Shown: positions 9,341 to 45,384 of the stretch, one piece after another
How positions within the stretch are numbered: position 1 is the stretch's first letter
Layout: each line of letters begins with the position of its first letter
NCBI GenBank assembly: GCA_964187785.1
Contig: OZ076409.1
Coordinates: 39,308,001-39,372,000, forward strand
Direction of reading: 5' to 3'
Length of the DNA stretch: 64,000 nt
Source: Amphiscolops sp. MND2022
Taxonomy: Eukaryota
Notes under the pieces: generated by a model
What the model was told of the DNA's origin: nothing
The model's database searches: none
The model's input: the letters and a program-made list of their open reading frames with translations, nothing else
Program-made: the position numbers and the translations under genes

Positions 9341-9344
9341 CGGA

Positions 9345-14673: not shown

Positions 14674-14861
14674 TGTAGAGTGAGCTTAGAGGTCAGACTT
14701 TACATAATGATATTATGTAATTATATTAAAAGTACCTGCTAAAATACTGCTAGCCACATTGAGATATCATTTAGTATCTATACAATTAAAGCTAGAATTC
14801 AGTATTGACCTCTTATACTATTTTGTTACCTTCGAAGTTACAACACTTCGAAGGTACAACA
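14674..14861 (+). repeat. 3' LTR (188 bp, TGT...ACA)
   Basis: Follows the PPT and ends ...GGTACAACA before the TSD. Confidence 0.9.
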
Positions 14862-16478: not shown

Positions 16479-16684
16479 ATGATGCTGAAAAACTGCGAAG
16501 CAACATTCGAAGTTCCTAAGCTAATCAGATGAAAACTCGAATTTTTGGAAAATCAATAAAACTTGAAAAATCTTTTCAGGAATTTAAAAAAAAACCTATA
16601 TTTTACTGACTTTTCAAAGATTTCGAGCTTTCATCTAATTAGCTTAGGAACTTCGAATGTCGCTTCGCAGTTTTTCAGCATCAT
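16479..16684. repeat. Fold-back (MITE-like) inverted repeat
   Basis: ATGATGCTGAAAAACTGCGAAGCAACATTCGAAGTTCCTAAGCTAAT... pairs with ...ATTAGCTTAGGAACTTCGAATGTCGCTTCGCAGTTTTTCAGCATCAT; arms ~80 bp, AT-rich spacer. Confidence 0.8.
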
Positions 16685-17823: not shown

Positions 17824-18012
17824 ATCGATTTTAGATACTTTCCCTCGGTTGGGCGTGGTCAACTTGATTTTGTTAACAGGATCTGAAGTAACGATACAAG
17901 TCTCTTAGATGCAGGGTCACCCTGCATCTAAAAGACTTGTATCGTTACTTCAGATCCTATCAACAAAATCAGGTTGACCACGCCCAACCGAGGGAAAATA
18001 TATAAAATCGAT
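17824..18012. repeat. Near-perfect ~190-bp palindrome with no spacer
   Basis: Arms pair from ATCGAT(17824) to ATCGAT(18012) with centre GCAGGG-TCA-CCCTGC at 17911-17925 and only a few mismatches. Confidence 0.9.
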
Positions 18013-21363: not shown

Positions 21364-22827
21364 TGTGATAATCCTCTTCCTCAGAGTCCTCATTTGAGAT
21401 CATTGTTTCGTCTAGGTCTATCTCCTTACGGTACAAAGGTTTTGCAGGATGTTTCAAATCCTTAGAACCTGAGGCTTTAAGAGGATAATCCTCGTTTTCT
21501 GAGTCAGTATTTTCGAAGTTAGATGCGTGTACTCCTATAGACTTAGATCCCGATGGTTGTGAATTTTGGGCTTCAGCTGCTTCTGACCTGGGATTCGTTG
21601 TTGTAGACATGATTTTATTGGATCTAATTTCCTTTAAGATGGACTCTAGTTTATTGTCCATTTCTTCCTTCATTTTGGTAATTCTGTCGTTGCTTTTTTG
21701 CTCTAAAATCTGCGTCCAAACTTGTATTTCGTTGCTAGTTTGACTGGGTTCAGCTAATTGATTTTCTGAGACGTTATCACCTAGATTTCCCTGTACATTC
21801 TCATTTAAATTAGTTAAAATTCATTACCTGTGTTGGGCGTTTCTAACTGGGTATTATTGGCTTCTCTCTCAGGGGAAGGTGTCTCTAATCTTCTAGAACG
21901 TCTGTTTCTCTTATTTCCCATCTTTACTTGATTGAAAACATCAGTTTACGAAGGAGAAAACAGTTGAATTTCTTCAGTGAATTGGTGAAAAAATCAAACG
22001 GTTGATGATCAAAATTGTAGATGAAAGGTTTACGGATTGAGCAAAAGAGGTACAATTAAGAAGCAACTGTACTCTGTGAAGGTAGAAAACAACTCTGACA
22101 AATTCTCTTATTGCACTCCTGGTTTCAAAAATGAAAGAATGACACTCTTTTTTATGAGAATCACGGTAGGAAAAGTACAAAAATAACATTACCTCAAAAG
22201 GACGTCATTCTATTTATATCCTGCACTCATCAGAACACGACGTTTAAAACGAACCTAATTGTCCTATTGGACCCTGGAAAGTAGTTAAAAAGCGACGTAA
22301 AAAGGTATTCCAAATGATATACAGCACCGTGTATGCATTGTCTATACAGTGTGATTAATCCTGCTGAAAATGTATAATACCGTGTGTGCATCACTTCGGA
22401 AAACGTATGAACCGTATGCAGGAAAACGTATAATAACGCATATGCGTTACTCTTAAAAACGTATAATGCCGCATATCAACATTGCGCAAATCAGTATTAT
22501 GCCGTACATGCGGCACTCTACAAACTACATAATGCCGTATTGCCAAATTGAATGGAAAAGATCATTACTGTATGAATGAAATAGCAAAAGCACTATAGCC
22601 CCGAAATTACGTCATATAAAGATGACTCAACTTAAGGTTCTGAATATTCATGACAAAAAGACTAATTTAACATTAACATCAAATCAAAGTGTCTTTGAAT
22701 GAGAAAATATTTAACATTTACATGAGTTCAAAAAATAAAACAAGTCTTCAAGTTTAGTTGAGTTTGGCTGCTTTTCTGTTTGTTCAGGGTTGCACTACGG
22801 CTCCATCGCAGCGCTGGGGCTCCGACA
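21364..22827 (-). repeat. G1 3' LTR (1464 bp)
   Basis: Direct repeat of 35863-37327 with roughly 30 substitutions and one 1-bp indel by eye. It contains a copy of the gag 5' coding segment. Confidence 0.95.
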
Positions 22828-23842
22828 GTCCCGCACTTTTAAAACAGAAGAGAGCTGCTTCGAAGCCGTCTATGAACGCCCTTGAACGTACCCGCCGATC
22901 TCTGACAGTCTCACCTTCGTAAGCAGTTGCCGCTAAGTATTCCCCCAGGGTTTCCAATGCTACTTGATCGTAGGACTTGTTACAGCGTTCACAATACCCT
23001 GCCACATTTGGCATGACCGTTGGGAACAGCCTAATGTTCATTCTCTCGTTCACTGGGATGAGTAGCAAGTTGGGACTATGGGCCACATGGAATGGAAATC
23101 CTATTTGCACTGCAGGGTGAGCTGGGACAGTGATTCTCTGAATCATACTTGGGGCTCCTCTTGGGGGTAGCTGGATCACTAGAGGGGTCATGTTGTTGAC
23201 TACTGTATTGTTCTGTTCTTCGTACAATGGCATAACGTGTATGTTTGTCCAATCTGCATTGTCAGTTGAGCTTCTAGGAATGTCCTGTTCAGCTGGTACA
23301 TTTGTAAGCCAAGGATGGAAACTTGACGTTTCAGCGTGAAAATTTGGTGGGTAAGTTGGTAAATGTCCGCTGCCGCCGTCTGGTTGATGCTTCGCGTTCC
23401 TTGGGGTGGGAAGGATAGCAGCTGACGGACGGCCATAACTGTTTATTCTTGGATTGGTATTCACAGTAGGTTCATCCGGAGAGCTTGTGGCTTCTTCAAA
23501 CTCACTGTCAATAAATGAGGAGTGAGAAATTGGGCTGGGCAACTGATTCTCTACTACTAATTCCATCAGTTCTTGTTCAATCCTTGTTCCTGCAGTGTCA
23601 ATTGTATCAGTTTGAGGTACTGAAACACTATTGGAAGGGAACAATAAGGCTGCAGTAGGGCCTATGAAGGCAGTCATTGCATCTTGCCCCATTGGATTAG
23701 CTCTAAATCTCTCTTCAATCTGTAGTATGTTCCCTGGTTCGACTAGGAAATCATTTTCCGAATCACTGGAAATATCCACTACATCAGGGGACAGTGGAGA
23801 GTATAGCGAATCTTCGTCGAAGTTGAATTGTAACTTGCTCAT
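22784..23842 (-). CDS. G1 ORF3: Ser/Pro-rich protein of unknown function with a C-terminal CxxC segment; ends inside the 3' LTR
   Basis: Uninterrupted 352 aa, GYCERCNKSYDQ motif, crosses the PPT/LTR junction as F-K-S-A-G-L-S. No signal peptide or TM segment seen. Confidence 0.7.
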   Translation of the reverse strand: MSKLQFNFDEDSLYSPLSPDVVDISSDSENDFLVEPGNILQIEERFRANPMGQDAMTAFIGPTAALLFPSNSVSVPQTDTIDTAGTRIEQELMELVVENQLPSPISHSSFIDSEFEEATSSPDEPTVNTNPRINSYGRPSAAILPTPRNAKHQPDGGSGHLPTYPPNFHAETSSFHPWLTNVPAEQDIPRSSTDNADWTNIHVMPLYEEQNNTVVNNMTPLVIQLPPRGAPSMIQRITVPAHPAVQIGFPFHVAHSPNLLLIPVNERMNIRLFPTVMPNVAGYCERCNKSYDQVALETLGEYLAATAYEGETVRDRRVRSRAFIDGFEAALFCFKSAGLSEPQRCDGAVVQP

Positions 23843-24740
23843 TTTGTTTGATGTTTGATGAGGCTAGAAAATAACTGACCCTTGTTTTGGAGAGGGTGAA
23901 ATAGTTTTAAATATTTATGAGGCAACTGAGTTTCAGATCTGTCAAGACCATGTGGTGATGGGTATTCAGCTTGCCTTCTTCTATGGTGGAAAGCCCGCGG
24001 GAAAAATGAGTGTCATGGTTTCCAAGCTCCTTGGCCTCCATATATGGTTTCCGAGACTCCCGCGGTGAAACCTTACTTCAAGCTTAAGGTGTAAACAACT
24101 TCCTTTTTAGGTGTTTCTTTCTCTTTCACCGAGCTTTACATCTTCCTCTGAGATTGTATTGCTTCGTTCAATCTTGGTTTTAATAGCACGTAAACAAATT
24201 CTCAACTACTTCCAAAATATAAGTTCTTACATGACTTCTGAATTTCAACACTTGCAGAAAAGACTAAAATTCACATTCATGTAATTTGCATGACTGGAAT
24301 GATTAGAAAATGGGTGAAGTTTTAGGTTAAAAATCATAGTTGAACAACTTTGGATGATTACTCACAATAAATTCATTCTCTGGTGATCATCTTTAGTCCC
24401 GCACTTGAAAAGTGCTTCAGAATTCTCTGTCAATCGACAATTGACTAGGCGTTAATCAACCAATATTCAGAAGATTGGTACCATAATTAAATATCATTCA
24501 CTTGTGAAAACAAGTGTAAAGAGTTTGTTGCAAATGTCACGTCAGTTCTAAACATGTAGTCTTTAATGTTTGAAAAGGTATATAGTTTTGTTTGTTTTGT
24601 TCTTTTGCTACACTGCTGTAAGACGCCGCAGCCTTCCAATTAGGTATACGCTATCTCAGCTTTATTCACATTAGCATCACACTGCAGCGCGTACTCTTTA
24701 TTTAGTGAATCTGTATAACGCCGCGCGCACGCTGTTAAGG

Positions 24741-24900
24741 TTTCTGTATGATGCCGTAGGCACGTCGTATGGGTTTCTGTATGATGCCGTAGGTACGTCA
24801 TATGGGTTTCTGTATGATGCCGCATATACATCATTGTTATTTCTGTATGATGCCGCATAGCTACCATCTCTTTTTCTGTATGATGCCGCAGGCACATCGC
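24741..24900. repeat. 33-bp tandem array, 5 units, invariant core TTTCTGTATGATGCCG
   Basis: Units start at 24741, 24774, 24807, 24840 and 24873; the 16-bp core is constant and the remaining 17 bp vary. Confidence 0.95.
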
Positions 24901-25359
24901 TTGTGAAAATGTAGTATTCCGCTTTAACTCTGACGTCATTTCAGTACAGTGTTGTGCACTGCTTGTCAATAAGAATATGCGGTACTGCACACGTCAATTT
25001 TGTAAACTAATTACGTAATCAGTCACTCTGGCAGCAGTGACCTATATTTAATTAGCCAATCAGATTTAAGCTCAAATCGCCTTGTTCACTGTATTTGTGA
25101 ACCATTTGCTTTTTGCCTCTTCTTTGAAACGCCACGCCAATAATTGTTACTCAGTACGCCAAATTTTTGATTTTCAGTACTAATTTAGAGTCTGTAGAAT
25201 TAGGTCAGTACAGTTGTTTTGTTCTTCAGTGTTTTTGTCTACATCTACTTCTGTTCCTGTCCACTCACTTGAATTTAACAGTTTATAAATCTCTTCTTTT
25301 CAACTTCCTTTTCAGTTCTCCGACAAATTACTGCAACATTTGACGTATTACCATTACGA

Positions 25360-28300
25360 ATGGATTCTGTTGACAAACGACGATCGCGCAAAGATCAACT
25401 TCCGAAGAGATTTCTTCCTTCTTCTTCGTGGGGGTACAAATCGTCTCCTGATTCTCCACCAGGTGCGTTCAACTCTGAATTCGATTTGGGTTTGGTTTCA
25501 GGTTTAGGTTTTTTCGTGATCACTTGAATTTAAATTGCAAAGATGGCCAGGCCTGCAAAAGAAATTGATCTAATTTTTTTCGACCAACTCTCAGGTTCTC
25601 TTGAAGTTTTTCAACTTCCGGTTTTGTTTTGAACGGAAAGTATCTTGTCATTTCCTTCTGCCGCGTCCGGTTTTGGGTAATTTTTGAACAATATCCGCTG
25701 TTTCGGTCCACTTCTGTTTCTATTCGCCAGCAGTTGACCAATTTGTTTCAGTTGAACCTGGTTCAATTCAAAAAGTGACAGAATCTTCTCCTGTCAAATT
25801 TTACGCACCACTCGAAGTCGTTTCTCCTGGCGAATGCAGTCGCCAACTTCCCGAATTGATTCCCCAGACAGACGCGGAGAACGAAAACGAAGAAGCTGAA
25901 CAATTGATTATTCACGAATTAGATCAGATCTCTTCTCCATCTGTGTTAGTCATTTACGAAGCTAAGGAAAATGAGGCCGATAGTTCAGGTCAATTAACGT
26001 CCCCTTCACAGCCACAAACTCCAATTACAACATAAACGACGGTAAAAAATTATCAACAATTGGCTTCGGTCAATACCCTGCACACACCATCCCCACGTTT
26101 TACCAGGTTTCTACGGCGAGAGGAAGAACCTGATTCACGGCGCAGCACCCCCACCATGGTTGATTGTGAAGAAAATGCTGATGATTCTAATGATGCAGAG
26201 GGTCCTAATGAACATGCTGAAAGTCAACCAGATGTAGTTCCAGTTGTCGAACCCGGTACACAGAATGATCGGAGTGTGACTGTGACTCGTCAAGAAGTTG
26301 TGACATTGATCAACATGCTAGAGAGAATCCCTCGCGAATTCTTTAATGTGGAAGGGGGCCAGACTAGCAGTCGGTTCTCTTTAAATGTCATTGCATATCC
26401 ACCAATTTCTCCTGTGAGAGATGCTCCAATCACAAGCCAAGAAGATACTCGAGAAACTGCCCAAGAAGGTAGTGGTACACAAAGCGAAGGTGAGAATCAA
26501 CTCGACTCTCGTAGGAAAAGACGGCGTCCCAGATATTCGCTAACAACCGCGATGCTGCGGAAACACTCTGTATTGCAATTCTTTGCTACTGGGCCTCGAA
26601 ATAGGGAGCGAGACCCACATCGTTGGTGGTGCCGAGTGTGTCGAGTGGAACTTTCCCTTAAAACGAGAGGGGCCCTTGAATTACTCTCGCATTACCGGAC
26701 CGATACTCACTTGACAAAAGAACACCGGATCAGGCTCGAGATCCCCGGGATGACTTTGTATGATAAACAAGAACGCGCACTACTAGGACTGGAGCTTCAA
26801 GAAGCTAAGCGAGCTGCGCGAGTTGCCCATCCAATTGTTCCACAGTTAGACAGTTGCAGGCTTCTTGTAGGACAGGAGAGGCTCCCTGATCTCACTTCAA
26901 ATTCTAGCCCAAGCGAAGATGTTCTGGCTCAAATCGGTCTCTTGGAACATGGGCTGAGACATGGAGGACATGTGAGCATCTTAATTGGCATCTGGGAGGA
27001 TATGGTAAAGCTATCTCCGAATAACTCGCAGTCATCTATCTACAACTGGAGCAATCATCGACTCTTTGTTAGTATTATTCCGTTTCCATCTTCAGTCTTC
27101 TAACTTTCCGACTCATAATCGTTCTATTAGACTCGTTCTGTATAGGGATTTGATTTGTTTTCTTGTTGTATAGTAATATTTCCGTTGCTTTAGGCAATTC
27201 TCACCTACATGTTCCAGGAATTAATGCAATTCTGCGTTACAACAATTGCTACCGCTGGGGCATATTCTCTGAGCTTCGACAGAACACAGACGGATGTAAG
27301 AGTGTTCTTGAATTTTTGGTCCGGCAACATCCACCACCAAGTCTGCATGGGTACTGGGCCAAGAGGTTTATATTTGCCCATGAGAAGTTTTTTGCTTATC
27401 TCTTCCTTTCTGAGCCTCCTTGAGAAACCCCCATCCTGTGTATGTATTTACGATTGTGATGAACGACTTGCGGCTACTCTTGCCACTTCTTTGCCTGGAG
27501 GGCGACGACCAACTGTAGCCGATGCTTTTTGACCACTTGAGTTAGAGAAAAGCCTGGCTCTGCTCACTTCACGAACTCTTGAAAGGCATGATTTCCGGAC
27601 GATTCTAGATTTTCTCCTGATGAAACTACGGACCGCTATGGACCGCGAGTGGTTACAATCACTGCCTGAGCTTTACAAGGTTATTATTTTTCTTTATATA
27701 GGGTTTCCAAATCCATATTGTTTCCTTTAAGAGGATGGTTTTGTTGCAGTGCGTCTCTAACTTGACCTACACCCTTTCTGAGGCATCAATGTTGATTGAG
27801 ACCCTCTCTGCTTATTGGGACAGGGTTCTGAACCATCTAAGTCGCGTGTCCCGTCTCCCCACGTTTCGCTTCCACATGAGAGAGGTATTATTTTGGAATC
27901 ATGAATTTCGGTTTTATTTTGTATTTTTGACTCGAAGTCATTGAATTTGTGTTACAGCCCAGCACTTTGGATGAATGCTTCCGGCTTGACACTGCGTATC
28001 TGGCTCGGCTTTTTGTTATTCGTTGTGTTCTGGACCATTGTGAGTATCGTTTACTTTATCACTTCCGTATCTTCTTTTCACAACACATTTTTCAAATTTC
28101 ATACTCAGCTATATTCAATTTTGATTTTCTTTTGTTGACTTTCCATAATTAGTGATAATTATGCTTGTGCGAAGTAGGTTTGAATTTCCTGTGTGATCTC
28201 TCCATACTTGGCGTGGAAAAATCTGGTAGTTGTAGAGTACCGTATACACATCACTCTCATTTCCGCATATTGCCGTATATGTGGCACTCGTATTTCCGCA

Positions 28301-29679
28301 TAATGTTGTATTGTTGAGATTGAAATTCTGTATAGTGACGTTTATGCGTCATCCAATTTTCCGCATATTTCCGTATGGTTAGTTCTTGAACTACTAAGCC
28401 ACGTGTACACGTCATTCAAAATTTTGTACGAGGATGAGTAATTGCGTTGTATACTTTTTTTGACTAGTTCTTTAGCATAATAGGTGATGTAATTTGAGTA
28501 TCCGTAGATAATTCACGGTAGTTGTACGGGTTGAATTTTGAATTATTTCTTCTGATTAGCTGCTGTATTTTAGACAAAGCTGCATTCTCTGAAGTGTATT
28601 CCCAGTACGGTGGTGGGTTCAAAATTTATAACCAGTACGCTGTCTTCGTTTACAGCCAGCTGCAAGCCATTCTCCCAGACAATTTCCTTGGGAGTATATC
28701 AGAACGGGACAAGTACCTTCAATTGGACTTGAGTCAGCCCAACTTGCCATTCAAAACTCCTGACCAGTTCGTGCTCAACTCAGACTATCATCGGCTTGTA
28801 TTATCCAGCAAGTTACCACGTCCGAGTAAATTTATCGAACAATCGATTGCATTTTGTAAAGCTTTCTGTCGGTGTTTATTATCACATCCCATCGTGAAAT
28901 CGGACCTTGTAAAAGGTCTGTCATGCTTCGATTCGGCCACAATTCTTGACAGTGAAGAAGAACGATACATTGCTGCTGTGGAACATTTGACCACAAACTT
29001 TGCTTCCAAGGGATGGTTGCGTTCGGCGGACAAGGCAAAGGCGGTGAGCCAATATCGTGCCATGGTCACCAAGTTTCGTGCTGGACAAGTTGATCGTTCC
29101 GGGGATTGGTTCCTTTATTTGTCATCCCATTATGAGCTGCAATGTCGGACTGAACTCCATCAGCTTTTCAAGTTGTCTTGTCTGTGTCTGCCCCCTAAGA
29201 TATCTTATCCTCCAGAACTTACAGTTCCTTTGACCGAGTTGGGCCCTGATGAGGAGGTGTTTCGCTCATGTGTTGCTGGTGTTCAAATTTCTTACAACAC
29301 GCTGCCCAATGTAACCAGTTTGTACAAGGATCCTCGGTCGATTAGTCGAGTTTTCCGTTTGCTCGGGAGAGGACGGGAGTTGTTAGCTGACCGAAAATTC
29401 TCCATTTGGAATTTCCTCCGAGGGAGTGCACTAAGGAGAGGTAAATGGTTTGCCAAGTTTGAGACTGCTTACAAGAGTGTAGTAGTTAGCCCTAGTGTCT
29501 TGCATCCTACAGAGGACAGTGACGTGGCAAGCGAGCCACAAACGTCGAGCAGTTCTGAATCGCCTACAGCCCGATTGAATTTGGGAAAGGCTACTGTTGC
29601 GGTGGCAAAGCTGCAAGATGAGGTTCCTTGTGGGTCAGGTGGAACAAAGAAAAAGTCGGCGAAGTCAAAGAAGAATTGA
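25360..29679 (+). pseudogene. G1 antisense multi-exon gene: zinc-finger, hAT-transposase-like protein; this copy has a premature stop
   Basis: In-frame GT-AG exons ..-27067, 27194-27679, 27750-27884, 27958-28039 and 28574-29679. WCRVCRVELS..H..TDTH finger. In-frame TGA at 27530-27532. The 5' exons (ATG 25360?, 25752-~25988, ~26107) are not fully resolved. It aligns along its length with the G2 gene. Confidence 0.75.
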
Positions 29680-29865
29680 ACTTTTGAGACATTCATTCCA
29701 TCGCCTCCGAGTTATTTTCATTGTATTTACATTTTGTTTTGGATTTCTTTCTGCATTTAGTATGCCATATTTAACCCTGTATGGGTCAATAAGATAAAAA
29801 AGGGCTCTGTAATACTCTAGAATGAGCCAGGACAGAAGAGATGATTTTGTCTTGAAGTTTGTTTT

Positions 29866-32800
29866 TTAGTATCTGTAAGAGTCAGAATAATTTGGGTTAG
29901 GGTTAGGTCGCAGGTTGTATCTTTTACCACGGGTATTAATGGGTTTTTCTTGCAATGGAGTATTTTGTGAGTTTTCTGGGGTTTTTGGGGTTTTTTCTTC
30001 TGGTGTAGTATCTTTGTCTTTTTGGGTGCTTTGGGGAGCATTTATCTCGTCACTATGAGTTTCTTGGGAAATTTCATTTTTACTTTCTTCTTCTAGATCA
30101 GTGGTCTGTTCCACTGGGCTCCCCCCACTCGTTTTTGAAATTTCGCGGGAGGGAGGGTGGTTAATTTCGGGTACTTGAGAAGGTACATATTCAACATCGT
30201 CATCGTTAAGTGTAACGTCTGCTGGATTTTCTTCGAATGGGTTGGGGCCAAAGTTTGTATTCCATGATTGGGCGTAAAGATCATCATGCGCCACAGAAAT
30301 TTGATCATCCTTTTGCCAATCAGTTTCTCTGACAAATATGTCAGCTAGGGGAGCTTGCGGGGTAAATTTCCGCAAACGGATTCGATGTAACAGTTGGGTT
30401 TTGTTCGTTCCTAGCCTTCTAACTATATAGTTATTGTTGGGAAGAACTTTTTCGACTTTATAGGGACCTTGCCATTGGAACTCCCGGAATGGTATCTTTG
30501 ATGCCTGTGATCTGCTTTCGGGTTTAAGATGTAGCAATAGTCGGTTGTTTCCAGTGGGGATGCTTTTGCTTTTCTATCGTAATATGCTTTGTATTTAAGA
30601 TAGGATTGCATTATGTTCTTTTTCGTTTGGTCAAGAAGTATTTTCATTCTTCTTTGTACTTCGTCTGCTACGTCAGTGTGTGGTAGATATTTGGGGTTGG
30701 GATTGTAACCCAGTTTATAATCAAGTATGTTATGTGGTATGCGCCCATGGAAAACTCGTGAGGGTTCGCAACCAAGTGATGCATGACAGGTTGTGTTGTG
30801 ATTCAGGATTGCTAGCGGGAGAAACTTGTGCCAATTGTTTCGGAATTCTCCCGTTGCAGCTTTAAGGTGTGTTTTTACTGATGCATGAGTCCTTTCTAGG
30901 AGTCCTATTGTTTGAGCGTGCTTCATCGTTGCGTGTTTAAGCTCAATTCCGAGGACTGCTGCAACTTCATGGGTTATTTGAGCATTGAATTGTGTTCCGA
31001 GGTCGGTGATTATTGTTGTTGGAAGGTATGTGTGTTTACATAGTATGTCCATGATGACACGGGCCGCTGCTGTAGCGGTAATGCGGGTAACTGGATATGC
31101 AAACAGGTATCGGGAAAAAACGTCTATAGCTGTTATTATATGGTCATATCCGCCACTGGGCGGGAGATTGGGTAGGATGTCCATCTGAAGTATATCTTCA
31201 GGGCCTAGATTCCATTCAGGGCAATTGAGCATTTCTGTCCTGAGGAGGTCATTGTTGATTCTCTTTGTTTGACTGCAAGTTTGACAATTAGTCACCCATT
31301 TTTTGATTTATTTGGCTATACATGGGTAGTAATATTTTTGTCTGGCTTTTTGTATCATCTTCGTGATGCCAGGATGGTTTGGGTTATGGCCATGCATGGC
31401 TTGAAGGAATTCTTCAAGAAGTTGAGCTGGTAGTAGGATTTGGTAGTGCGAAGTGGCTCCCGTGTCTGTATAGTATTTACGTGTCAGCAGCTCTTGTTTA
31501 ATTTCGATGCTTGTGATATTTTGGAGGTAGTGTTGGTATCGGTAATCAGAGGCCAAATCGTTTTCATTGAAGGGGTTCCCTTCTAGTTTGGCTCTGAGGT
31601 TTCTGAGAACGATGTCATTGTTTTGTTCAAGGCGAATTCTGGCGTTGTCTCGGAAGTGTCCCTCTGAAGCCAGGTTCAATCCAGATGTGGGTTTATGGAA
31701 TTGTTGAAGTTCAGTTACATTGTTTTCTGGATCGTTGTGGGTTTCGTTTTGGGCTTGATTTCGTTCGTTTTGTTTTTCTTCCCATAATTTGTTTTCGTCT
31801 AATTCATCATCAGGGAGAATGTAGATTTGTTCTTCTTCTACTATTCCAGATGATTGTATGTTGACTTCTATTGCTTTCGTCTGGATATCGTTTCGTATAC
31901 TCATTTCGAGTTTCTCGATCGGGTTTACTTCTGTCCTTGACAGAAAATCAGCTGCAGTATTCATCGAACCGGCAACGTGGGCGATTACAAAGTTGTATTG
32001 TAAAACATAATCGCATGCGTTCCAGAGTGCTGGGGGAATGAGTTTTGCATGGAAAAAGCGTGTTACTGATCTATTATCGGTGAACACGATAACTGGGAAA
32101 GTGCTTCCCCACATGAGGTGACCAAACTCAACAAACGCAAAATATATGAAGAGGAATTCCTTTGCATATATAGACATTTTGGTTTGTGTTGGGTTAAAGG
32201 TTTTGGACCCAAATGTTATGGGTGCGTAGGTTTTGCGTTTAGACTGAAGTTTTTGGCTTGGATCATCTTCTATCATTATAGCATATCCTGCTGCTGTGAA
32301 GCTTGCATCGGACATGACTATAAGTTGTTTGTCCTTGAGGGGTTGTCTCAAAGCTAACTGACATGAATTTTCAAGAAGTTTATTCAGGTTGGTGAATTCT
32401 TTTACTAGATTCGTTGGTACATAGAATTTGTTCGTTTCTTTGAGGAGCTGGAAAAACGGGGATAGTCTTTCAGAGAGGCGTGGAATATAGTTCCGATAAT
32501 AGTTTAGGAATCCAATGTAGCGCTGAAGTGCTTTTTTGGATTTGCTGAATCTGATTTTTGACAAGAAGTCCTTGAATTTGTCGGCTTGAGGAGCATCTCC
32601 TGCTGGTGTAATTGTACGGACCAGGAAGTCGACTTGTTTGACTCCGAAATGCCACTTGGACATGGTGAGTTTCAATCCAGCGTTTCGGATACACTCGAAC
32701 ACAGTTCTGATGTTCGCACATAATTGTTTTGCATCGTTTGCTGCAATTCCGATGTCATCTACATATTGTGCGCATTGATCGGCTTTAATAGCTCTATCGA

Positions 32801-34748
32801 GGTACTCTCTCATGAAGCTTGAAAATGCCGAGAGCGATCTACTCAGTCCTTGCGCTCAGTCCTTGCGCAGGTTCGGCTTGCAAAATTGAAAGCAAGCATC
32901 TGAATGGATTGATAGTCTGCCATTTGAAGGCAGTGGTAAGCCTGGGAGCAGTCGAGTTTGCAGAAAAGTTTCTTTCCAGCCATGTGTTGTGCTGCATCCG
33001 ATAAGGTGCTCACCGGGTGGTTGTTGTTGATGTAGTCTTCTGTGATTAAGTTATTGATTTTCCGGAGGTCCACCAGGAGGCGGAGTCGGCCATTTGGTTT
33101 TCGTTGGGCGAAGATGGGACTTGCGTATTTCGAAAACGGTAGTGTTGTTATGATTCCATATTTATGTAGAAGTGCTAGTTCTACTGTGATGTCGTCTTTC
33201 AGGTTGATTGGAGTTGGCAGACTTTGGCTATAAGCTGGTCTGTCGTCATTGGGTGTAAGTTTTACTTTGAATTCGCGATTTGTTGCGATGTCAAAACGAT
33301 GTCTTGCAAAAATGTCGTGAAAGTCAAAGAGAATTTCTTCGACTTGTTGTCGTTCTTCTGGACTGAGTGTTGTGTCAGACCAGTCAAAGTTTGAAAGAAA
33401 TTGATTTTCTGGATGTTTCATTCTCTTGTGGGTTGAGTTTTTCAAGTTCCTTTAGTTCAAGGAGTTCGTTATATATTCGTTGTTGAATTGGTGTGTATGT
33501 TGTTGGATCCCCGGGGTCTTCTGGTGTGGGAAACCAATATGATTCTTGGTCTGGATTTTGCGGAGGAACTTTCAGGAGTTCATTAATGTAGATCTCAGTT
33601 GTTTCTTCGTGTTGTATCATGAAGGATAACATCGCAGGATCTACTGGTTGTATATGTTTTATCTGTTCTGGAGTGAGGATTTTGAAATCCGCTAAATGAG
33701 TATCACAGGTTATTGTGTGTGGGAGTTCAGAAAAATTGATGATTTGGTACCCGATAGCGTTGTTATTAACTGTACTGAGTGACGATGTGATAAATATGCT
33801 ATCGTGATTTTCAAATTGTGGTGAAGGTGTAACTATTCCTGTTGCATCGTGGTCTAACAGGTGTGACAATCTGCTTGCTATTGCGAGGGTTTCTCCTGGT
33901 TGTAAAGTGTATGTGTTTTCGGCAAATAGAGGCGTTGCTTGTCTTATAGCAACTTGTGAGTCTGGTTTTAGTTGCATTGAGAGATATGGGAAAGTTAGGA
34001 TGCCTTGAGTGACATCAAAAATTGCGTTATTTCTTCTGAGGAAGCATAGTCCGATTAATGGATTTGGAAGATTTCTCATTATGATGAAATTTTCTCGTAA
34101 CATGAAGTCAGCGACCTCGAATTCAAGTAGTACTGTGTCGATTAGTACTTCTTATTGACCACTGGCTACCATAATTTGGAAATTTGGCGGTGGGCCAGTC
34201 TCTTTTATTCCCTCGTTGGCAAGTATTTTGATTTTGTTTAGGTCCTGTTCAGAAATTGCACTTGTCAGGGCTCCTGTATCGATGAGTCCATCAAGAGTGA
34301 GTTTTTCGAAGTCCATCGGCATATAGTACATGTGTCGTTTTCGCTTCAAAGTCAGAGAAGTTGAAATCGGTAGGTATGACAGATTTCGTTCATGGTCAAA
34401 CTGTATATGGTTAGAGATGTCTTCGTCTAAGAGGGGTTGTTTTTGTTCATTGCAAGGAAGGGTTGTTGTGTGGTGATTTTCTGGTGTGTTGTTTGTCTGC
34501 GACTGAGTCGTTCGTGTATTGTCTGAAAAGTAGTTGTCAGGTGCATCCCGTAGGAGTTGATAATAGGACTCTTGAGGAGGTTCATTGTCGTCGGAGTCTG
34601 TTAGGTCTTGAGGTTTTGTGTCTGTTTCGTTTGTAAGTTGTTTGAGTTGAATGCTTATTGTGTCCACGTGACGCTGCCAGTCGTCTTGCGGGTTCGTGTC
34701 ATTCAACTGTAAGTGCTGGTTTTTAGTGCGTGGCGTTTCTAGTTTAAA
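29866..34748 (-). pseudogene. pol: G1 pol (PR-RT-RH-IN), several frameshifts and stops
   Basis: LIDTGA protease; KLDCSQAYH and CAQYVDD RT; VMSDAS / TDNR RNase H; HPGITK..C..C, MDILP..DVFSRY..TDLGTQF..LERTH integrase; WQGPYKV GPY/F motif. Confidence 0.95.
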
Positions 34749-36421
34749 TCCTTTGAAGAGGATTGTTGCTGTCGTTCTATTTTGGGTTTTATCGGTTTTC
34801 GTGCTTGTTTGTATGTCTCAATGACTTTCTTTTGAGCTGCTTCCGTTAGGGTCCACTTGGGTGGGCGGTTTTCCATGTTAGCACCAAAGTAGCAGTTTTC
34901 TTCTTGATGCCCAGGTGTATTACAGTTCTGCCATTTTTCAGCCTCTGGGTCTTCTTCAAGCTTTCGTCGTTTTGCCAGTTTGGAGCAATCAGCCATCATG
35001 TGACCTGTCTCTTTGCAGTAACGGCATTGGTTATTTTTGAGGGTTTTATCTGGCACTGTTTTTGGAGTCTGTGTTTTGGGTTTTTCAGTTTGTTTTTTGT
35101 TGGATTTTTCGGTTTTTTGGTCTTTTTTAGTAACAGTCATTTGAGTTTTGACAACAGGTTCGTCAGCTTCAAGACTGTTAAGTTCCATCTCCCTTTCAAG
35201 ATGTTTACCGATTTGGTCGTATGATTCGTTCTCTAAGTATGCCTGATTATTTGATTTTTTCAGATGAGGGGGCATCTTTGCATAGAGTAAGTTTTCTATC
35301 ATTTGGTGCGCTTTATCACCAAAAGCCTTTTCTGCACTTTCTTGGAGTTCCTCAAGGAAATCTGGAAGTTTCTGATTTTCGGGTTCAAATGACAGTTTGT
35401 TGAATCTGTGTTTGGCGGATGCACTAGATTCTGGTTTTACGTATTTTCGGCGGAAGACTTTTAGGATATCTTGCAAAGTTGTAGTTGGGGTACGTTGGAT
35501 GTTTTTAAATGTTTTGAGTGCTAAACTTCTGAGATGGGCATGGAAATGGTTTATTTTCATGTCTTCTGTTAGAATCGGCTGCATTCGAAGAGTTGTATGA
35601 AATAAGTCTTCGAAGTACTCAAATTTCTCGTTTTTTTCATTTCGCCCATTGAATGTTAGTGTGTTTTTCGGATGAAAGAGAGAAGGTTGCGAGTTTTTGT
35701 TTGCCAGTTTTTCTATTGCTAGTGCAATTTGGTTACCTGGGTCGAGTGACTTTGCTGTCGGATTTGACGTGTTGTGGTCTGCGTGGGATCCTGTGGTGTC
35801 ATTTAAAGACTGAGGGTTTTGTGAGCTCTGTCTATGGAGTTGTCGGTTGGCTCCTGTCACCATGTGATAATCCTCTTCCTCAGAGTCCTCATTTGAGATC
35901 ATTGTTTCGTCTAGGTCTATCTCATTACGGTACAAAGGATTTGCAGGATGTTTCAAATCCTTAGAACCTGAGGCTTTAAGAGGATAGTCCTCGTTTTCTG
36001 AGTCAGTATTTTCGAAGTTAGATGCGTGTACTCCTATGGACTTGGATCCTGATGGTTGTGAATTTTGGGCTTCAGCTGCTTCTGACCTGGGATTCGTTGT
36101 TGTAGACATGCTTTTATTGGATCTAATTTCCTTTAAGATGGACTCTAGTTTATTGTCCATTTCTTCCCTCATTTTGGTAATTCTGTCGTTGCTTTTTTGC
36201 TCTAAAATCTGCGTCCAAACTTGTATTTCGTTGCTAGTGTGACTGGGTTCAGCTAGTTGATTTTCTGAGACGTTATCACATAGATTTCCCTGTACATTCT
36301 CATTTATATTAGTTAAAGTTTCATTACCTGTGTTGGGCGTTTCTAACTGGGTATTATTGACTTCTCTCTCAGGGGAAGGTGTCTCTAATCTTCTAGAACG
36401 TCTGTTTCTCTTATTTCCCAT
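34739..36421 (-). CDS. gag: G1 Gag (560 aa), first ~186 codons inside the 5' LTR
   Basis: Capsid-like TFNGRNEKNEKFEYFEDLF...KINHFHAHLR..F RRKY; CCHC CRYCKETGHMMADC plus a second knuckle with C>W. Confidence 0.95.
   Translation of the reverse strand: MGNKRNRRSRRLETPSPEREVNNTQLETPNTGNETLTNINENVQGNLCDNVSENQLAEPSHTSNEIQVWTQILEQKSNDRITKMREEMDNKLESILKEIRSNKSMSTTTNPRSEAAEAQNSQPSGSKSIGVHASNFENTDSENEDYPLKASGSKDLKHPANPLYRNEIDLDETMISNEDSEEEDYHMVTGANRQLHRQSSQNPQSLNDTTGSHADHNTSNPTAKSLDPGNQIALAIEKLANKNSQPSLFHPKNTLTFNGRNEKNEKFEYFEDLFHTTLRMQPILTEDMKINHFHAHLRSLALKTFKNIQRTPTTTLQDILKVFRRKYVKPESSASAKHRFNKLSFEPENQKLPDFLEELQESAEKAFGDKAHQMIENLLYAKMPPHLKKSNNQAYLENESYDQIGKHLEREMELNSLEADEPVVKTQMTVTKKDQKTEKSNKKQTEKPKTQTPKTVPDKTLKNNQCRYCKETGHMMADCSKLAKRRKLEEDPEAEKWQNCNTPGHQEENCYFGANMENRPPKWTLTEAAQKKVIETYKQARKPIKPKIERQQQSSSKDLN
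34742..34748 (-). promoter_or_regulatory. G1 -1 ribosomal frameshift heptamer T TTA AAC
   Basis: gag ends GAT TTA AAC TAG and the -1 frame is open into pol (LETPRTKNQHLQLNDTN...). Confidence 0.75.
35851..35862 (-). promoter_or_regulatory. G1 primer-binding site TGGTGACAGGAG
   Basis: Abuts the LTR end ...ATCACA and is identical to the G2 PBS. It resembles the complement of a tRNA-Leu 3' end (ACTCCTGACA-CCA type) with one mismatch. Confidence 0.85.
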
Positions 36422-37327
36422 CTTTACTTGATTGAAAACATCAGTTTACGAAGGAGAAAACAGTTGAATTTCTTCAGTGAGTTGGTGAAAATATCAAACG
36501 GTTGATGATCAAAATTGTAGATGAAAGGTTTACGGATTGAGCAAAAGAGGTACAATTAAGAAGCAACTGTACTCTGTGAAGGTAGAAAACAATTCTGACA
36601 AATTCTCTTTTTGCACTCCTGGTTTCAAAAATGAAAGAATGACACTCCTTTTTATGAGAATCACGGTAGGAAAAGTACAAAAATAACATTACGTCAAAAG
36701 GACGTCATTCTATTTATATCCTGCACTCATCAGAACACGACGTTTAAAACGAACCTAATTGTCCTATTGGACCCTGGAAAGTAGTTATAAAGCGACGTAA
36801 AAAGGTATTCCAAATGATATACAGCACCGTGTATGCATTGTCTATACAGTGTGATTAATCCTGCTGAAAATGTATAATACCGTGTGTGCATCACTTCGGA
36901 AAACGTATGAACCGTATGCAGGAAAACGTATAATAACGCATATGCGTTACTCTTAAAAACGTATAATGCCGCATATCAACATTGCGCAAATCAGTATTAT
37001 GCCGTACATGCGGCACTCTACAAACTATATAATGCCGTATTGCCAAATTGAACGGAAAAGATCATTACTGTATGAATGAAATAGCAAAAACACTATAGCC
37101 CCGAAATTACGTCATATAAAGATGACTCAACTTAAGTTTCTGAATATTCATGACAAAAAGACTAACTTAACATTAACATCAAATCAAAGTGTCTTTGAAT
37201 GAGAAAAAATTTAACATTTACATGACTTCAAAAAACAAAACAAGTCTTCAAGTTTAGTTGGGTTTGGCTGCTTTTCTGTTTGTTCAGGGTTGCACTACGG
37301 CTCCATCGCAGCGCTGGGGCTCCGACA
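35863..37327 (-). repeat. G1 5' LTR (1465 bp)
   Basis: Direct repeat of 21364-22827; TG...CA termini on the minus strand. Confidence 0.95.
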
Positions 37328-38467: not shown

Positions 38468-40630
38468 TGTTGGAACTCTCGTTCCTAGACAAACTAGTTT
38501 CTTCTAGCTCTACAGTAGGATTCCCGCTACTTTCAGTCCTGGTCGTCGAGTAACCTTGTTCAGAATAAACGCTCGATAAACTGTCAACTTTGGACGACAG
38601 GTTCTCAATCAATTTTAATATCTCACGTTGATTGAGTTCAGTGTCTTTGAGACGTTTGGAAATTCTATTCTCAATTTTATTGGATATGTCTTCAAAATCC
38701 CTTTCCGAAAGTGTGGTGTTTTCGTCGTTAACAGAGCTTGCGGTTTCTACGTCGAACTGGCTAGTCGACTGGTCACTCCTTAACTTCCGTTTTTGAGATT
38801 TCTCAGGCATCTTGTAAAAATAGTGGAGGAACAATATTCCAATTAAACTTGAATCGTTACAAACGTAATGGAGGCTTCAGTTCAATGATTTTCCAAAGTT
38901 TTCCGAAACAAAAGTAATTATATTAAGCAAAGGCAATTAACTCGATTATTACAAAAGTAAAATTTTCAGAGAATGATTAATCAAACGCACTTGAAAAAAT
39001 AAAATTGTCAACTATCTTTTCCTAATCCCGCTTCAGGTATTTATACTTTACGCTAGACACGCGGAGAAAACCCCGCGCGTGAATTCACACCTTGTTCACC
39101 TCGGCGTCCTTTCCGAAGCGGGGAAATCCAAATAAGGTATTCTTCCTCGGGACTCGGCATTCGGTTTCAACCCACTTTAAAGAAAAGTGGGAATTCACTT
39201 CCTGCCGCTTCCCAATTCCGCGTCCCTTTCTTCTTCATTCCCCGCCTTTTCAAGACGCCGAAGGTGAAGTTGGCACTGAAATTCATGAACCTAGCTACTG
39301 AAGCGGGAAAAGGAAATGAAATTATCACCGAACAATCCCAAATTTTACTACTAGTAATTTAAGGGAAACATCAAAGAAATAAACTAACAGCACTGATTTC
39401 TTCTAAATCAGATGATTATGGCCGTTAATTAGCACTTTAAATTGAAGCTAACGAAAAAGTCCTGGGTGAACGCCAGGTAACGAATTTCATTTAGAGTGAC
39501 CTGGCCGTTTGACCGGGCTATTGACTCAACTATGTATTAACAAAACATTGCATGTGAGGACTGGAAAAGGCAGCACTGGGGGTTGTTTTACTATATTATC
39601 GTCAAATATCACATTTAGCAGGGGCAACATTGTTATTAGGTTAACTATAGGGCATGTATTAATTGAATACGTTCGGTCAGCTGTCCAGGCTCTTGTGATA
39701 TTAAAGAAATTTAGCGCTTCGCCTGGGAAGTTGACTCAACTACAAGGTGGACCGAACGCGTTAAAAATACTACAAGCATCATCGATTATTACTCATTGGA
39801 AGTACTTTTGGTATTTAGCTTCTTTTAAGCCACAAAACATTTATCTAAAGTTAGCATCGATTATTTGTACTTGATTGATCAGTTAGAATGACTGAACGAG
39901 CGTCCCGGCGGTCGTCCCAGATTATAAATTTAGAACGGTCGTCCCGGTGGTCGTCCCAGATTATAAATTTAGAACGGTCGTCCCGGCGGTCGTCCCAATT
40001 ATCGGGATCGGCAAATCTTCAATCACACCTTTTCATGCTATAAATATCACGTTTTCGATCTTCACTATTGAATACTGCACAATTTAAGCTTCTTCTAAGC
40101 TTTGGATTTGTATTCACTTCACACGTGACGTCACTTAATATGTTAGCACTTTGATTAATTCGATCGAGCTCCCAGGCGTGCGTCCCAGTCTTTGCTGACT
40201 GGTGGCTTGACGAGTATAGTAGCTGAGTTAATACTGCACATTCGCGCTTGGCGCTGATTGGTTAATTAAAAGGACAGTGAGAATTAATGTGTTTTGCTAC
40301 GCAGATATTGGGACGGTAGGCTGGTCAGTGCGCTGGTTGGAATAACTTCAATCAGCGTATTGGTCAAGCTACTGCAAACAAATCACATTTACAACAAGTT
40401 ATTATTATTTAATTACTTACATATTTATGTATTTCAGGTACTGCAGAGGATTGATGATATTAATATTATGCACTTACAGGGTTGTTCAATATCAATGAGT
40501 GTTTGTTTGTTGATTGTTTCCTTTCAGGTTTGTGATGGTTTATTAGCTTCTTCTTGGTTAATTTCTCCATTTCTTTCCTCTGGCGTTCTCTCTGTTCTTT
40601 TTATTTCACGGCCCTGTGGCGGCTGTGACA
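38468..40630 (-). repeat. G2 3' LTR (2163 bp)
   Basis: Same length as 52142-54304; only 4 substitutions noticed by eye. Confidence 0.97.
39901..39997. repeat. 39-bp tandem repeat (2.5 units) in the G2 LTR; copy at 53575-53671
   Basis: Unit CGTCCCGGCGGTCGTCCCAGATTATAAATTTAGAACGGT. Confidence 0.92.
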
Positions 40631-44400: not shown

Positions 44401-45384
44401 CTCATGGGATTTTTGAGAGTGTTGAATGAATCTGCCTTTATGAATTCTCGCTTGTCCTCCAGTTTGAGTTGTTTTTCGCCGGATATGTTGCTTCTTGGCG
44501 AGGAATCATATACTGTTGAGCTCTTTCGTGGTCTGGTTGCTTGTTACCTAGAGTGTGGACGTTTGACTGATGTAGAGGCCGAAGGGTCCTGTAATGAATT
44601 CAAGTCCTTCTTAGTGGAATTGCGTCGACGGAATCGCCGAGTGGTGTCCAACATCAAAGACACTTTTAGCTTCATGCGGGAGTCTGAGGCTTTCGGTTGT
44701 CGGGACCATTTGTCGCGTGTTGTTCAGTTGTCCTCAGTTCTGGTGGTACCCCGTGAGGTGTCATATCCTGATGTGGATATCTCGTTGAGTGGTGTAGCTG
44801 TTCCAGCAAAGATTCTTACTTCAGCTATTCTCTCTGTGCAGTCTTACGTTTCCTTCTCTGGGTTCAGTTCCGGGGAGTTGTTGACAAAAGACTGTCTGGA
44901 TGATTTAAAGGTCAATCTCCCTGCTGGAAAGAGTTTCATCGATGACGTTAGTTTCTCTCCATGGACATCGGTATATCAGCATTGCCACCAGGAGTTGTAC
45001 CGCAGTTTGCGTGATCGTTTCGACGCGTATTTCCTGGAACAGGTGGATGATTGGCGTCATCGTCTGGGCACTCTGTCAAAGATGGCTGTTGCAGGTACTG
45101 GTGGTTCTAGTGTTGCGCCGTCTGCCGATGCTGCTGTTGTCAGTCCGCAAGCTGGGGCAAGTGTGTCCCGTGATGCTGGTAGTATTCAAGGTGTTTCTCC
45201 CAGTGCGCCACCTCCTTCAGCTGCTAATGTTGTTGATAAGTCGCTACTGATGTGTAGTCCTGTGCGGTCAAGTGACGTTACCCGGGTTTTGCAGCAAAGA
45301 CGCCAGGAACGGAAAGAAATGTTGTCTTCGAATCAAGCTTCATCGAGTGCTTCAAAGGACAAGAAGAAAGGAAAGAGGCGATGA
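41457..45384 (+). CDS. G2 antisense 5-exon gene: 1174-aa zinc-finger, hAT-transposase-like protein (probably catalytically inactive)
   Basis: Exons 41457-41847, 41942-42133, 42203-42409, 42507-42617 and 42761-45384 total 3525 nt with no internal stop; all four introns are GT-AG, phase 1. Acidic N-terminus, FNCAVCRRDVS..H..RKSH finger, hAT-like blocks and a basic C-terminus KDKKKGKRR. Confidence 0.8.

What the first reader, a model, noticed from the sequence alone, without database searches (positions are those of the whole stretch)
24741..24900. A 33-bp array in the divergent intergenic region shares its core with ~33-bp-spaced motifs in the G1 LTR
Seen: five units with invariant TTTCTGTATGATGCCG lie between the divergent starts of ORF3 and the antisense gene. 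The LTR (22366-22535 and 36866-37040) has a run of related motifs on the same strand at similar spacing (AAATGTATAATACCG, AAACGTATAATGCCG, CAGTATTATGCCG, TACATAATGCCG), and the large intron has CCGCATATTGCCGTAT-type variants (28260-28380). Established: hAT zinc fingers bind multiple short subterminal repeats. Inference: these could be binding arrays for the element's own zinc-finger protein, forming an autoregulatory circuit. Alternative: the array encodes an 11-aa RHHTE repeat (minus ORF 24640-24990).
Basis: partly seen in the sequence, partly recalled or inferred. Interest (0 to 1): 0.7.

Follow-up and report, generated by a model that had tools for sequence, protein, structure and literature searches.

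The report
Retrotransposon's three matching binding-site arrays
A large animal retrotransposon carries the same short DNA motif in regularly spaced arrays at three non-coding places and also carries a gene derived from a DNA-binding transposase, which suggests, but does not show, that the element makes a protein that recognises and switches on its own copies.

Summary
Five 33-bp units share an invariant 16-nt core while 15 of 17 spacer columns vary, and two weaker units flank them. The same motif (YGYAT-N5-CGYAT, often followed by an inverted third half-site) forms 33-bp arrays in both LTRs and in an intron of a 16-kb Ty3/Gypsy element, all on one strand. A matrix trained on the LTR alone ranks 11 of the 12 other units 12th-24th of about 128,000 positions. 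The constraint is on DNA, not on the RHHTE peptide: pN/pS is 0.9-1.2 and synonymous core sites are frozen. The antisense gene is hAT-transposase-derived: the sister element's homologue folds like Hermes (Z 12.6), keeps a CCHH finger and lacks conserved catalytic aspartates. Best reading (0.5): arrays bound by the element's own protein, working like plant VANC/TnpA self-recognition systems. Binding is untested. The sister element has a different array, in its LTRs only, and host transcription factors remain a real rival.

The parts
24708..24924 (+). Intergenic 33-bp array, 7 units; five with an invariant 16-nt core (24741, 24774, 24807, 24840, 24873)
   Evidence: 8 of 8 sister translations lack one of the five units
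24617..24631 (+). Single off-register copy of the core motif
   Evidence: rank 6 with the intergenic-trained matrix
22367..22540 (+). 33-bp array in the 3' LTR (5 units, one 56-bp step); U3 position inferred from a minus-strand TATAAA at 22218
22508..22522 (-). Inverted full copy of the core directly abutting the unit at 22493 (head-to-head pair)
   Evidence: found by all three matrices
36867..37040 (+). Same array in the 5' LTR
28227..28376 (+). 33-bp array (5 units) in the intron of about 28041-28574 of the antisense gene; intron ends inferred from GT/AG and flanking frames
21364..37327 (-). Ty3/Gypsy element G1: TG...CA ends, 5-bp target duplication GTATG, gag-protease-RT-RNaseH-integrase; pol interrupted in this copy
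21364..22827 (-). 3' LTR of G1
   Evidence: 97.9% identical to the 5' LTR, 31 differences
35863..37327 (-). 5' LTR of G1, containing the gag start
25360..29679 (+). Spliced antisense gene derived from a hAT transposase; start codon and exon structure inferred; interrupted by stops in this copy
   Evidence: homologous to G2's 901-codon frame (E 1e-9 and 1e-4), which folds like Hermes
26630..26710 (+). C-x2-C-x16-H-x5-H zinc finger of the antisense protein
   Evidence: nearest ESM Atlas cluster is 83% zf-BED, score 0.92
22784..23842 (-). ORF3, sense to gag-pol, function unknown; splice acceptor inferred at 23864
   Evidence: no Pfam hit above cut-off, no usable Atlas hit
24640..24993 (-). Open frame reading the array as an 11-aa RHHTE repeat; probably a by-product
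39894..40002 (+). Comparison: unrelated 39-bp array (two direct GGTCGTCCC half-units per unit) in the LTR of sister element G2; twin at 53568-53676
42679..45384 (+). Comparison: intact antisense frame of G2, hAT-transposase fold

Best explanation
The arrays are clusters of binding sites on double-stranded DNA, kept by selection, and the likeliest binder is the element's own transposase-derived zinc-finger protein. SHOWN: (1) One motif, two pentamer half-sites 10 bp apart and often a third inverted half-site, repeats every 33 bp, in one orientation, in the LTR, in the region between ORF3 and the antisense gene, and in an intron. (2) The core is frozen while the spacers drift, without regard to codon position. 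(3) Units are gained or lost whole. (4) The antisense gene family has the hAT transposase fold, a conserved CCHH finger and no conserved catalytic aspartates. INFERRED: (5) An ancestor captured a hAT transposase gene that lost cutting but kept multimeric DNA recognition. (6) The element amplified the recognition site by tandem duplication beside its promoters. (7) The protein coats these arrays on one helical face (10 bp is about one turn, 33 bp about three) and keeps the LTR and the internal divergent promoter active or protected from silencing, including its own gene, which gives positive feedback limited to its own family. Activation is more likely than repression only by analogy.
For: Cross-validated motif sharing. 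Core 0 of 16 columns variable against spacer 15 of 17; 0 of 200,000 shuffles give such a run. Core identity between arrays is 0.60-0.71, against 0.33-0.38 for the next 8 nt and about 0.25 by chance. Half-sites within 1 mismatch of YGYAT: 17 of 17, 16 of 17, and 8 of 17 for the inverted third (background 4.9%; 6 of 13 after dropping four similar intergenic units). Dyad matches 95 of 255 against 65 +/- 7, with no unit-specific covariation (p 0.28) and no unusual RNA folding (z 0.63, -1.12, -0.03), which favours a DNA site over a hairpin. The motif words are the top over-represented 7-mers of G1's non-coding DNA, and G2's top words are those of its own array. Hermes transposase chains fill Foldseek ranks 1-10 (best E 1.2e-4); VIA Z 12.6, rmsd 4.6, 384 aligned, next non-Hermes row Z 6.3. 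Finger ligands are kept in 22-23 of 23 rows. Literature passages: VANC21 binds motifs arrayed in one orientation in introns, intergenic and terminal regions, gained and lost as tandem repeats (PMC5735166). Hermes BED domains bind a quasi-palindrome plus a third site, and Tol2 has a palindrome with a third site 10 bp away (PMC10368747). Transposases and derivatives that lost catalysis act as sequence-specific activators (10.64898/2026.08.24.746577).
Against: There are no binding data of any kind. G2 has the homologous gene but no array in its intergenic region and no further clusters of its motif outside the LTRs, so the three-site layout is not general, and protein-motif co-variation rests on two elements. 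The fold was predicted for G2's protein; G1's is linked by weak sequence matches (27% and 20% identity). The isolated G1 finger gave no significant structure match (best E 1.7, BED fingers at ranks 3 and 5), and the best VIA rows were RNA-binding fingers at Z 3.6-4.9. There is no CpG hypermutability (transitions at 11 of 511 CpG sites against 42 of 2108 other C/G sites), so a VANC-like demethylation mechanism has no support. CRE-, AP-1- and CCAAT-type words (labels recalled) flank the arrays, which fits ordinary host-factor enhancers. The dyad axis was picked after scanning 66 axes, the units are not independent, and the pentamer is partly self-complementary, so other offsets also score 6-9 of 17.
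Confidence: 0.5

Rival explanations
1. The arrays are enhancer or insulator clusters for a host transcription factor, as the su(Hw) array is for Drosophila gypsy (recalled); the hAT-derived protein does something else, such as integration targeting.
For: All DNA-level constraint evidence fits equally well. The arrays sit 128-153 bp from minus-strand TATA-like boxes and beside CRE, AP-1 and CCAAT words. G2 lacks the internal arrays despite having the gene.
Against: Outside G1 the motif is at about background in the window (1 match against 0.53 expected). Two related elements in one host use unrelated motifs. The half-site geometry resembles hAT subterminal repeats. No motif library was available, so a host-factor match was not tested.
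Confidence: 0.25
2. A neutral minisatellite copied to three places by template switching during reverse transcription, with cores homogenised by recombination.
For: Spacers are weakly homologous between arrays (0.33-0.38, p at most 0.001), so the arrays share an ancestor. A whole unit was recently gained. Arrays of unknown function are common between pol and the 3' LTR (PMC11963269 passages).
Against: Neutral homogenisation should carry spacers with the cores, yet the contrast is sharp and holds in three long-separated arrays. The 33-bp period is kept in 12 of 14 steps. The flanks show no shared ancestry (1 of 30 comparisons at z 3.1).
Confidence: 0.1
3. The array is, or doubles as, a coding exon: an 11-aa RHHTE repeat, possibly spliced onto ORF3.
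For: The frame is open for 117 codons here and runs on for about 50 more in 6 of 8 sister translations. A naive model gives P about 0.007 for such a frame. Two GTGAAT donor-like words lie in phase 0 of this frame, and ORF3's acceptor is also phase 0.
Against: pN/pS between units is 0.88 (5 units) and 1.24 (7 units); core pS is 0.10 against spacer pS 0.61-0.67. The same motif persists in the LTR and intron arrays, where the frame is broken by 56- and 32-bp steps. The only protein hit among 166 candidates was a sister copy. The sisters were ascertained as called ORFs, and 2 of 8 change frame downstream. Control DNA holds 10 frames of 117 codons or more where the naive model expects 1.
Confidence: 0.08
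4. The motif acts on the genomic RNA as a repeated export, splicing-control or packaging signal bound by the finger, in the manner of retroviral Rev/Rex (recalled).
For: All arrays share one orientation and lie in the 3' part of the genomic RNA, which must escape splicing. The finger's best VIA rows are RNA-binding fingers of TUT4, TUT1 and SF3a (Z 3.6-4.9).
Against: No RNA structure beyond shuffles, no covariation, no Rfam match better than E 0.65. The 10-bp and 33-bp spacings and the dyad fit double-stranded DNA, and the whole protein has a DNA-transposase fold.
Confidence: 0.07

Closest known systems
VANC proteins and their motif arrays in Arabidopsis VANDAL transposons (PMC5735166, passages; PMC10398659, search listing only)
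   Same: Element-encoded accessory protein plus a short motif in one orientation, at high density, in terminal, intergenic and intronic non-coding DNA; gain and loss of tandem units; different motifs in related families.
   Different: Host element is a plant Mutator-like DNA transposon, not an animal LTR retrotransposon. VANC is related to MAIN (PMC13547354 passage), not to a hAT transposase. It acts through loss of DNA methylation, for which this window shows no mutational trace. Its binding is proven.
Spm TnpA and transposase-derived regulators (bioRxiv 10.64898/2026.08.24.746577, abstract and passages)
   Same: Regulator descended from a transposase, catalysis lost, binding dense motif clusters of its own family.
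   Different: There the regulator stays in a DNA transposon or is domesticated by the host. Here it sits in a retrotransposon; the word 'retrotransposon' does not occur in that paper's main text.
hAT subterminal repeats bound by BED fingers: Hermes, Tol2, Ac (PMC10368747, passages)
   Same: Same protein fold; N-terminal zinc finger; short half-sites as a quasi-palindrome plus a third site about 10 bp away.
   Different: Those sites lie beside terminal inverted repeats, are irregularly spaced and serve excision. Here there are no inverted repeats around the gene, the period is a strict 33 bp, the sites lie by promoters and in an intron, and the catalytic aspartates are not conserved.
Retand/Grande plant Ty3/Gypsy elements with antisense TRP28 ORFs and tandem arrays (PMC11963269, first fifth plus passages; PMC7264820, passages)
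   Same: [quoted passage not shown]
   Different: Plant lineage, with a TRP28 domain not found here. In the passages read, no motif shared between LTR, intergenic and intronic arrays is described, and the function is stated to be unknown.
Drosophila gypsy su(Hw) insulator array (recalled, no call)
   Same: Tandem cluster of zinc-finger binding sites inside an animal Ty3/Gypsy element.
   Different: The binder is a host protein and there is one array in the 5' untranslated region.

Membership tests
Ty3/Gypsy LTR retrotransposon (G1) | Two LTRs with TG...CA ends and a short target-site duplication | tested here: met
   97.9% identical LTRs, 5-bp GTATG duplication
Ty3/Gypsy LTR retrotransposon (G1) | Domain order gag, RT, RNase H, integrase | tested here: met
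   Pfam zf-CCHC/Ty3_capsid, RVT_1, RT_RNaseH, rve in that order on the minus strand; G1's protease frames were not scanned, G2's protease was found
hAT transposase (antisense protein) | RNase H-like core with helical insertion, as in Hermes | tested here: met
   On G2's homologue: Z 12.6, rmsd 4.6, 384 aligned; Foldseek E 1.2e-4. G1 is linked by sequence only
hAT transposase (antisense protein) | N-terminal BED-type zinc finger | tested here: inconclusive
   CCHH ligands conserved; Atlas top hit 83% zf-BED at 0.92 with 156 shared features, below the 170 typical of the same family; no Pfam hit; structure searches not significant
hAT transposase (antisense protein) | Conserved DDE catalytic triad | tested here: not met
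   No conserved Asp at the end of the first core strand (column 274: 0 of 23 D; neighbours 275 and 276: 0 and 8 of 23) or at columns 329-333 (at most 4 of 23); an acidic residue is kept at column 700 in 23 of 23. Register inferred from secondary structure, not from a residue-level superposition. G1 has Asp at the first position, but a 55%-identical relative does not
hAT transposon nested in the element | Terminal inverted repeats flanking the transposase gene | tested here: not met
   None among the 25 inverted pairs listed at 25 nt or more; shorter ones not tested
hAT subterminal repeats | Short half-sites as a quasi-palindrome plus a nearby third site | tested here: met
   17, 16 and 8 of 17 units; moderate, see caveats on self-complementarity
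hAT subterminal repeats | Bound by the cognate zinc finger | not testable with these tools
   No protein-DNA assay or model available
VANC/VANDAL-type system | Motif arrays in terminal, intergenic and intronic non-coding DNA, one orientation | tested here: met
   (G1 only; G2 has the LTR array alone)
VANC/VANDAL-type system | Gain or loss of whole units between copies | tested here: met
   8 of 8 sister translations lack one unit
VANC/VANDAL-type system | Motif differs between families in step with the protein | tested here: inconclusive
   G1 and G2 differ in both motif and finger; two elements only
VANC/VANDAL-type system | Protein homologous to VANC, in a Mutator-like element | tested here: not met
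   Protein has the hAT fold and the element is Ty3/Gypsy
VANC/VANDAL-type system | Acts by removing DNA methylation | tested here: inconclusive
   No CpG depletion (o/e 0.89) or CpG hypermutability; methylation itself not measured
Retand lineage | Antisense ORF and tandem arrays between pol and the 3' LTR | tested here: met
Retand lineage | TRP28 (PF04195) domain | tested here: not met
   No hit in 14 window frames or 32 relatives at E 0.1
Retand lineage | RT phylogeny within Retand | not tested
   No tree built; an innexin exon at 3506-3901 (E 1.6e-11) points to an animal host
Protein-coding tandem repeat | Synonymous bias between units | tested here: not met
   pN/pS 0.88 and 1.24; synonymous core sites frozen
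Protein-coding tandem repeat | Transcribed and translated | not testable with these tools
   No RNA or peptide data

The most novel reading that the evidence does not exclude
A family of animal LTR retrotransposons captured a DNA-transposon (hAT) transposase, lost its cutting activity and turned it into a private sequence-specific activator or anti-silencing factor, with each subfamily evolving its own finger and its own helically phased site arrays. This would be a class II protein regulating a class I element, and an animal counterpart of VANC/TnpA that may work without DNA methylation.
Probability: 0.4. Interest if true: 0.82.

Novelty: new variant of a known kind. Interest (0 to 1): 0.62.

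Why it matters
[quoted passage not shown] This element supplies a candidate protein with a recognisable DNA-binding ancestry and a precise candidate target in the same element, so the question can be tested with one binding assay and one reporter assay. If true, sequence-specific self-activation, so far shown for plant DNA transposons, extends to animal retrotransposons. The many divergent family members (830 profile hits at E 0.001 or better) would then be a natural set of finger-motif pairs.

Tried and rejected
RNA structure: no array folds better than shuffles, no compensatory pairing, Rfam nothing below E 0.65. Intergenic or intronic region as an old LTR copy: flanks do not align (1 of 30 comparisons at z 3.1). 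Pfam found nothing for the antisense protein, ORF3 (one weak hit below cut-off) or the RHHTE frame. A profile search of PDB sequences gave only two hits at E 0.11 and 6.7. The isolated G1 finger model (mean pLDDT 69) gave no significant fold match. ORF3 residues 240-352 gave no usable Atlas hit and no similarity to G2's ORF3. DNA of related elements: two scans of bacterial and archaeal genomes found nothing, as expected for an animal element; metagenome and viral contigs stayed unchecked, so arrays of other subfamilies were not seen as DNA. A spacer-only matrix does not find the other arrays. No array was found in G2's intergenic or 3' regions, or in the short LTRs of a third Gypsy element that lacks the accessory gene (one negative control only). 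Prior description: searches (listings and abstract starts only) showed no report of an LTR retrotransposon with a hAT-derived gene or with matching arrays. The library lacks most subscription journals and Repbase-type reports, and no supplements were read, so this is not proof of absence. Search 51 and passages of PMC9911081 held nothing on accessory genes, arrays or methylation; no link between that paper and this window was tested or is claimed. No host-factor motif library was available; resemblances to DMRT, POU, PAR-bZIP and Sap1 sites (recalled) were considered by eye and none fitted all units.

Full report
Context. The finding lies in G1, a 16-kb Ty3/Gypsy element on the minus strand (21364-37327), with LTRs 97.9% identical, TG...CA ends and a GTATG target duplication. 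Gag, RT, RNase H and integrase come in Gypsy order; pol is in several pieces in this copy. Between pol and the 3' LTR lie a spliced antisense gene (about 25360-29679, +) and ORF3 (22784-23842, -), pointing away from each other. The array lies about 870 bp from ORF3's first ATG and about 440 bp from the antisense ATG. A second element, G2 (38468-54304), has the same layout. An innexin exon indicates an invertebrate animal host, which I did not identify.

Observation. Five units carry TTTCTGTATGATGCCG at exact 33-bp steps, with two weaker flanking units. Among the five, 0 of 16 core columns and 15 of 17 spacer columns vary; a run of 16 invariant columns arose in 0 of 200,000 shuffles. LTR and intron arrays have 5 units each, and 12 of 14 steps over the three arrays are 33 bp. 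A matrix trained only on the LTR units ranks 11 of the 12 other units 12th-24th of about 128,000 positions, and the twelfth 37th. Training on the intergenic or intron units recovers the others less cleanly (ranks up to 338 and 360). All units are on one strand.

Anatomy of the unit. The core is two pentamers, YGYAT and CGYAT, 10 bp apart (17 of 17 and 16 of 17 units within one mismatch). An inverted third pentamer follows immediately in 8 of 17 (background 4.9%). The spacer is a decayed inverted copy of the core: 95 of 255 matches against 65 +/- 7 by chance, and one full inverted site at 22508-22522. This symmetry exists at consensus level only. Swapping arms between units does not reduce it (p 0.28), and none of the arrays folds better than shuffles as RNA. 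The caveats are that the axis was chosen after a scan, the units are related, and the pentamer is partly self-complementary. Spacers are weakly alike between arrays (0.33-0.38 against 0.25), so the arrays share an ancestor, but their flanks do not align.

Coding alternative. Between units pN/pS is 0.88 (5 units) or 1.24 (7 units), and synonymous sites in the core are nearly frozen (pS 0.10) while those in the spacer are close to saturated (0.61-0.67). The LTR and intron arrays keep the motif across frame-breaking steps. The only database match among 166 candidates was a sister copy. All 8 members of its cluster lack one unit, so the fifth unit is a recent private gain. In favour of coding: 6 of 8 sisters keep the frame open about 50 codons further, and donor-like words lie in phase with ORF3's acceptor. 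Those sisters were selected by being called as ORFs, and the chance model undercounts long frames tenfold in control DNA. I conclude that the constraint is on the DNA and that translation is a minor open possibility.

The candidate binder. G1's exons match G2's intact 901-codon antisense frame (E 1e-9, 27% identity; E 1e-4, 20%). The family is large: 33 and 74 hits in two searches, all from unnamed records, and 830 profile hits. A model of G2's protein (23-row alignment holding 22 of the 33 hits; mean pLDDT 71) matches Hermes transposase in Foldseek ranks 1-10 and at Z 12.6, rmsd 4.6, 384 residues. The CCHH ligands are kept in 22-23 of 23 rows. No aspartate is conserved at the two strand ends where the first two catalytic residues are expected, although an acidic residue is kept near the third position (register inferred). 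The G1 finger's nearest Atlas cluster is mostly zf-BED (0.92), but structure searches with it alone (36-row alignment, 35 of the 74 hits) were not significant and also listed RNA-binding fingers. So 'hAT-derived, probably non-cutting, finger retained' is well supported, and 'BED-type' is likely but not proven.

Internal comparison. G2 has a 39-bp array of a different bipartite motif in both LTRs, and its words are the most over-represented in G2's non-coding DNA, as G1's are in G1's. That fits family-specific recognition. But G2 has no intergenic or intronic array, which weakens any claim that the three-site layout is required. A third Gypsy element without the accessory gene has no LTR array (a single control). 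Paralogous repeats show no CpG hypermutability (11 of 511 against 42 of 2108), so if the protein counters silencing, the mark is probably not CpG methylation.

Mechanism. Most likely (0.5), a captured, catalytically dead hAT transposase binds the phased half-sites as a multimer and keeps the LTR and the internal divergent promoter active for its own family. The arrays, their constraint and the protein's ancestry are shown. Binding, promoter positions and direction of effect are inferred. Rivals: host-factor enhancer or insulator (0.25), neutral minisatellite (0.10), coding repeat (0.08), RNA signal (0.07).

Comparison with known systems. It works like VANC/VANDAL, where one motif is arrayed in one orientation in terminal, intergenic and intronic DNA and evolves by tandem gain and loss (PMC5735166, passages), and like transposase-derived TnpA (bioRxiv 10.64898/2026.08.24.746577, abstract and passages). 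It is a member of neither: the element class and the protein differ. The half-site geometry recalls Hermes and Tol2 subterminal repeats (PMC10368747, passages), but there are no terminal inverted repeats around the gene. In layout it parallels plant Retand elements (PMC11963269, first fifth and passages; PMC7264820, passages) without their TRP28 domain. PMC13547354 (passages) lists other captured accessory domains but, in the passages seen, no transposase in an LTR element. Six searches showed no prior report of this combination, within the limits of the library; no supplements were read.

Verdict. A real, selected, element-specific motif system: a new variant of a known kind of transposon self-regulation if the binder is the element's own protein. 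Interest 0.62; the boldest reading has probability 0.4 and interest 0.82.

Noticed in passing
window 38468-54304: Sister Ty3/Gypsy element G2 with 99.8% identical LTRs (very young), a CTTGT target duplication, the same ORF3 plus antisense layout and an intact 901-codon hAT-fold frame; the best natural source for binding tests.
   Followed up: partly
window 35863-36445 and 52142-52550: In both elements the gag frame starts inside the LTR and ORF3 ends inside the LTR, so the long LTRs (1.46 and 2.16 kb) carry coding DNA at both ends.
   Followed up: no
window 35851-35862 and 52130-52141 (minus strand): G1 and G2 share the same 12-nt primer-binding site start, TGGTGACAGGAG; the matching tRNA was not identified.
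   Followed up: no
window 22212-22218 and 22607-22629: The LTR array lies between a minus-strand TATAAA and a plus-strand CRE-like word plus TATAAA plus AP-1-like word (labels recalled), suggesting a bidirectional LTR promoter that could fire antisense into ORF3.
   Followed up: partly
window 22784-23842: ORF3 has a low-complexity N-terminus and a compact C-terminal region with a CxxC; no Pfam, Atlas or G2 match.
   Followed up: partly
window 20267-21363, 37369-38467, 55468-57299: G1 and G2 are inserted into copies of the same roughly 2-kb repeat, which also occurs uninterrupted at about 55468-57299; possible insertion preference or nesting in a tandem duplication.
   Followed up: no
window 9177-14838: Third, smaller Gypsy element (+ strand, LTRs about 164 bp, broken frames) without accessory genes or arrays.
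   Followed up: partly
window 6263-7732 and 5665-7951: Nested inverted repeats with CCATGCATGG subterminal repeats and an internal repeat at 7004-7398; looks like a non-autonomous DNA transposon.
   Followed up: no
window 17824-18012 and 16479-16684: Two long near-perfect palindromes (94-nt arms at 94%, 74-nt arms at 92%).
   Followed up: no
window 3506-3901: Innexin exon (Pfam E 1.6e-11), the only host gene piece recognised in the window.
   Followed up: partly
window 63580-63592, 55040 and 58025: Isolated matches to the G1 motif outside the element, at about the number expected by chance.
   Followed up: partly
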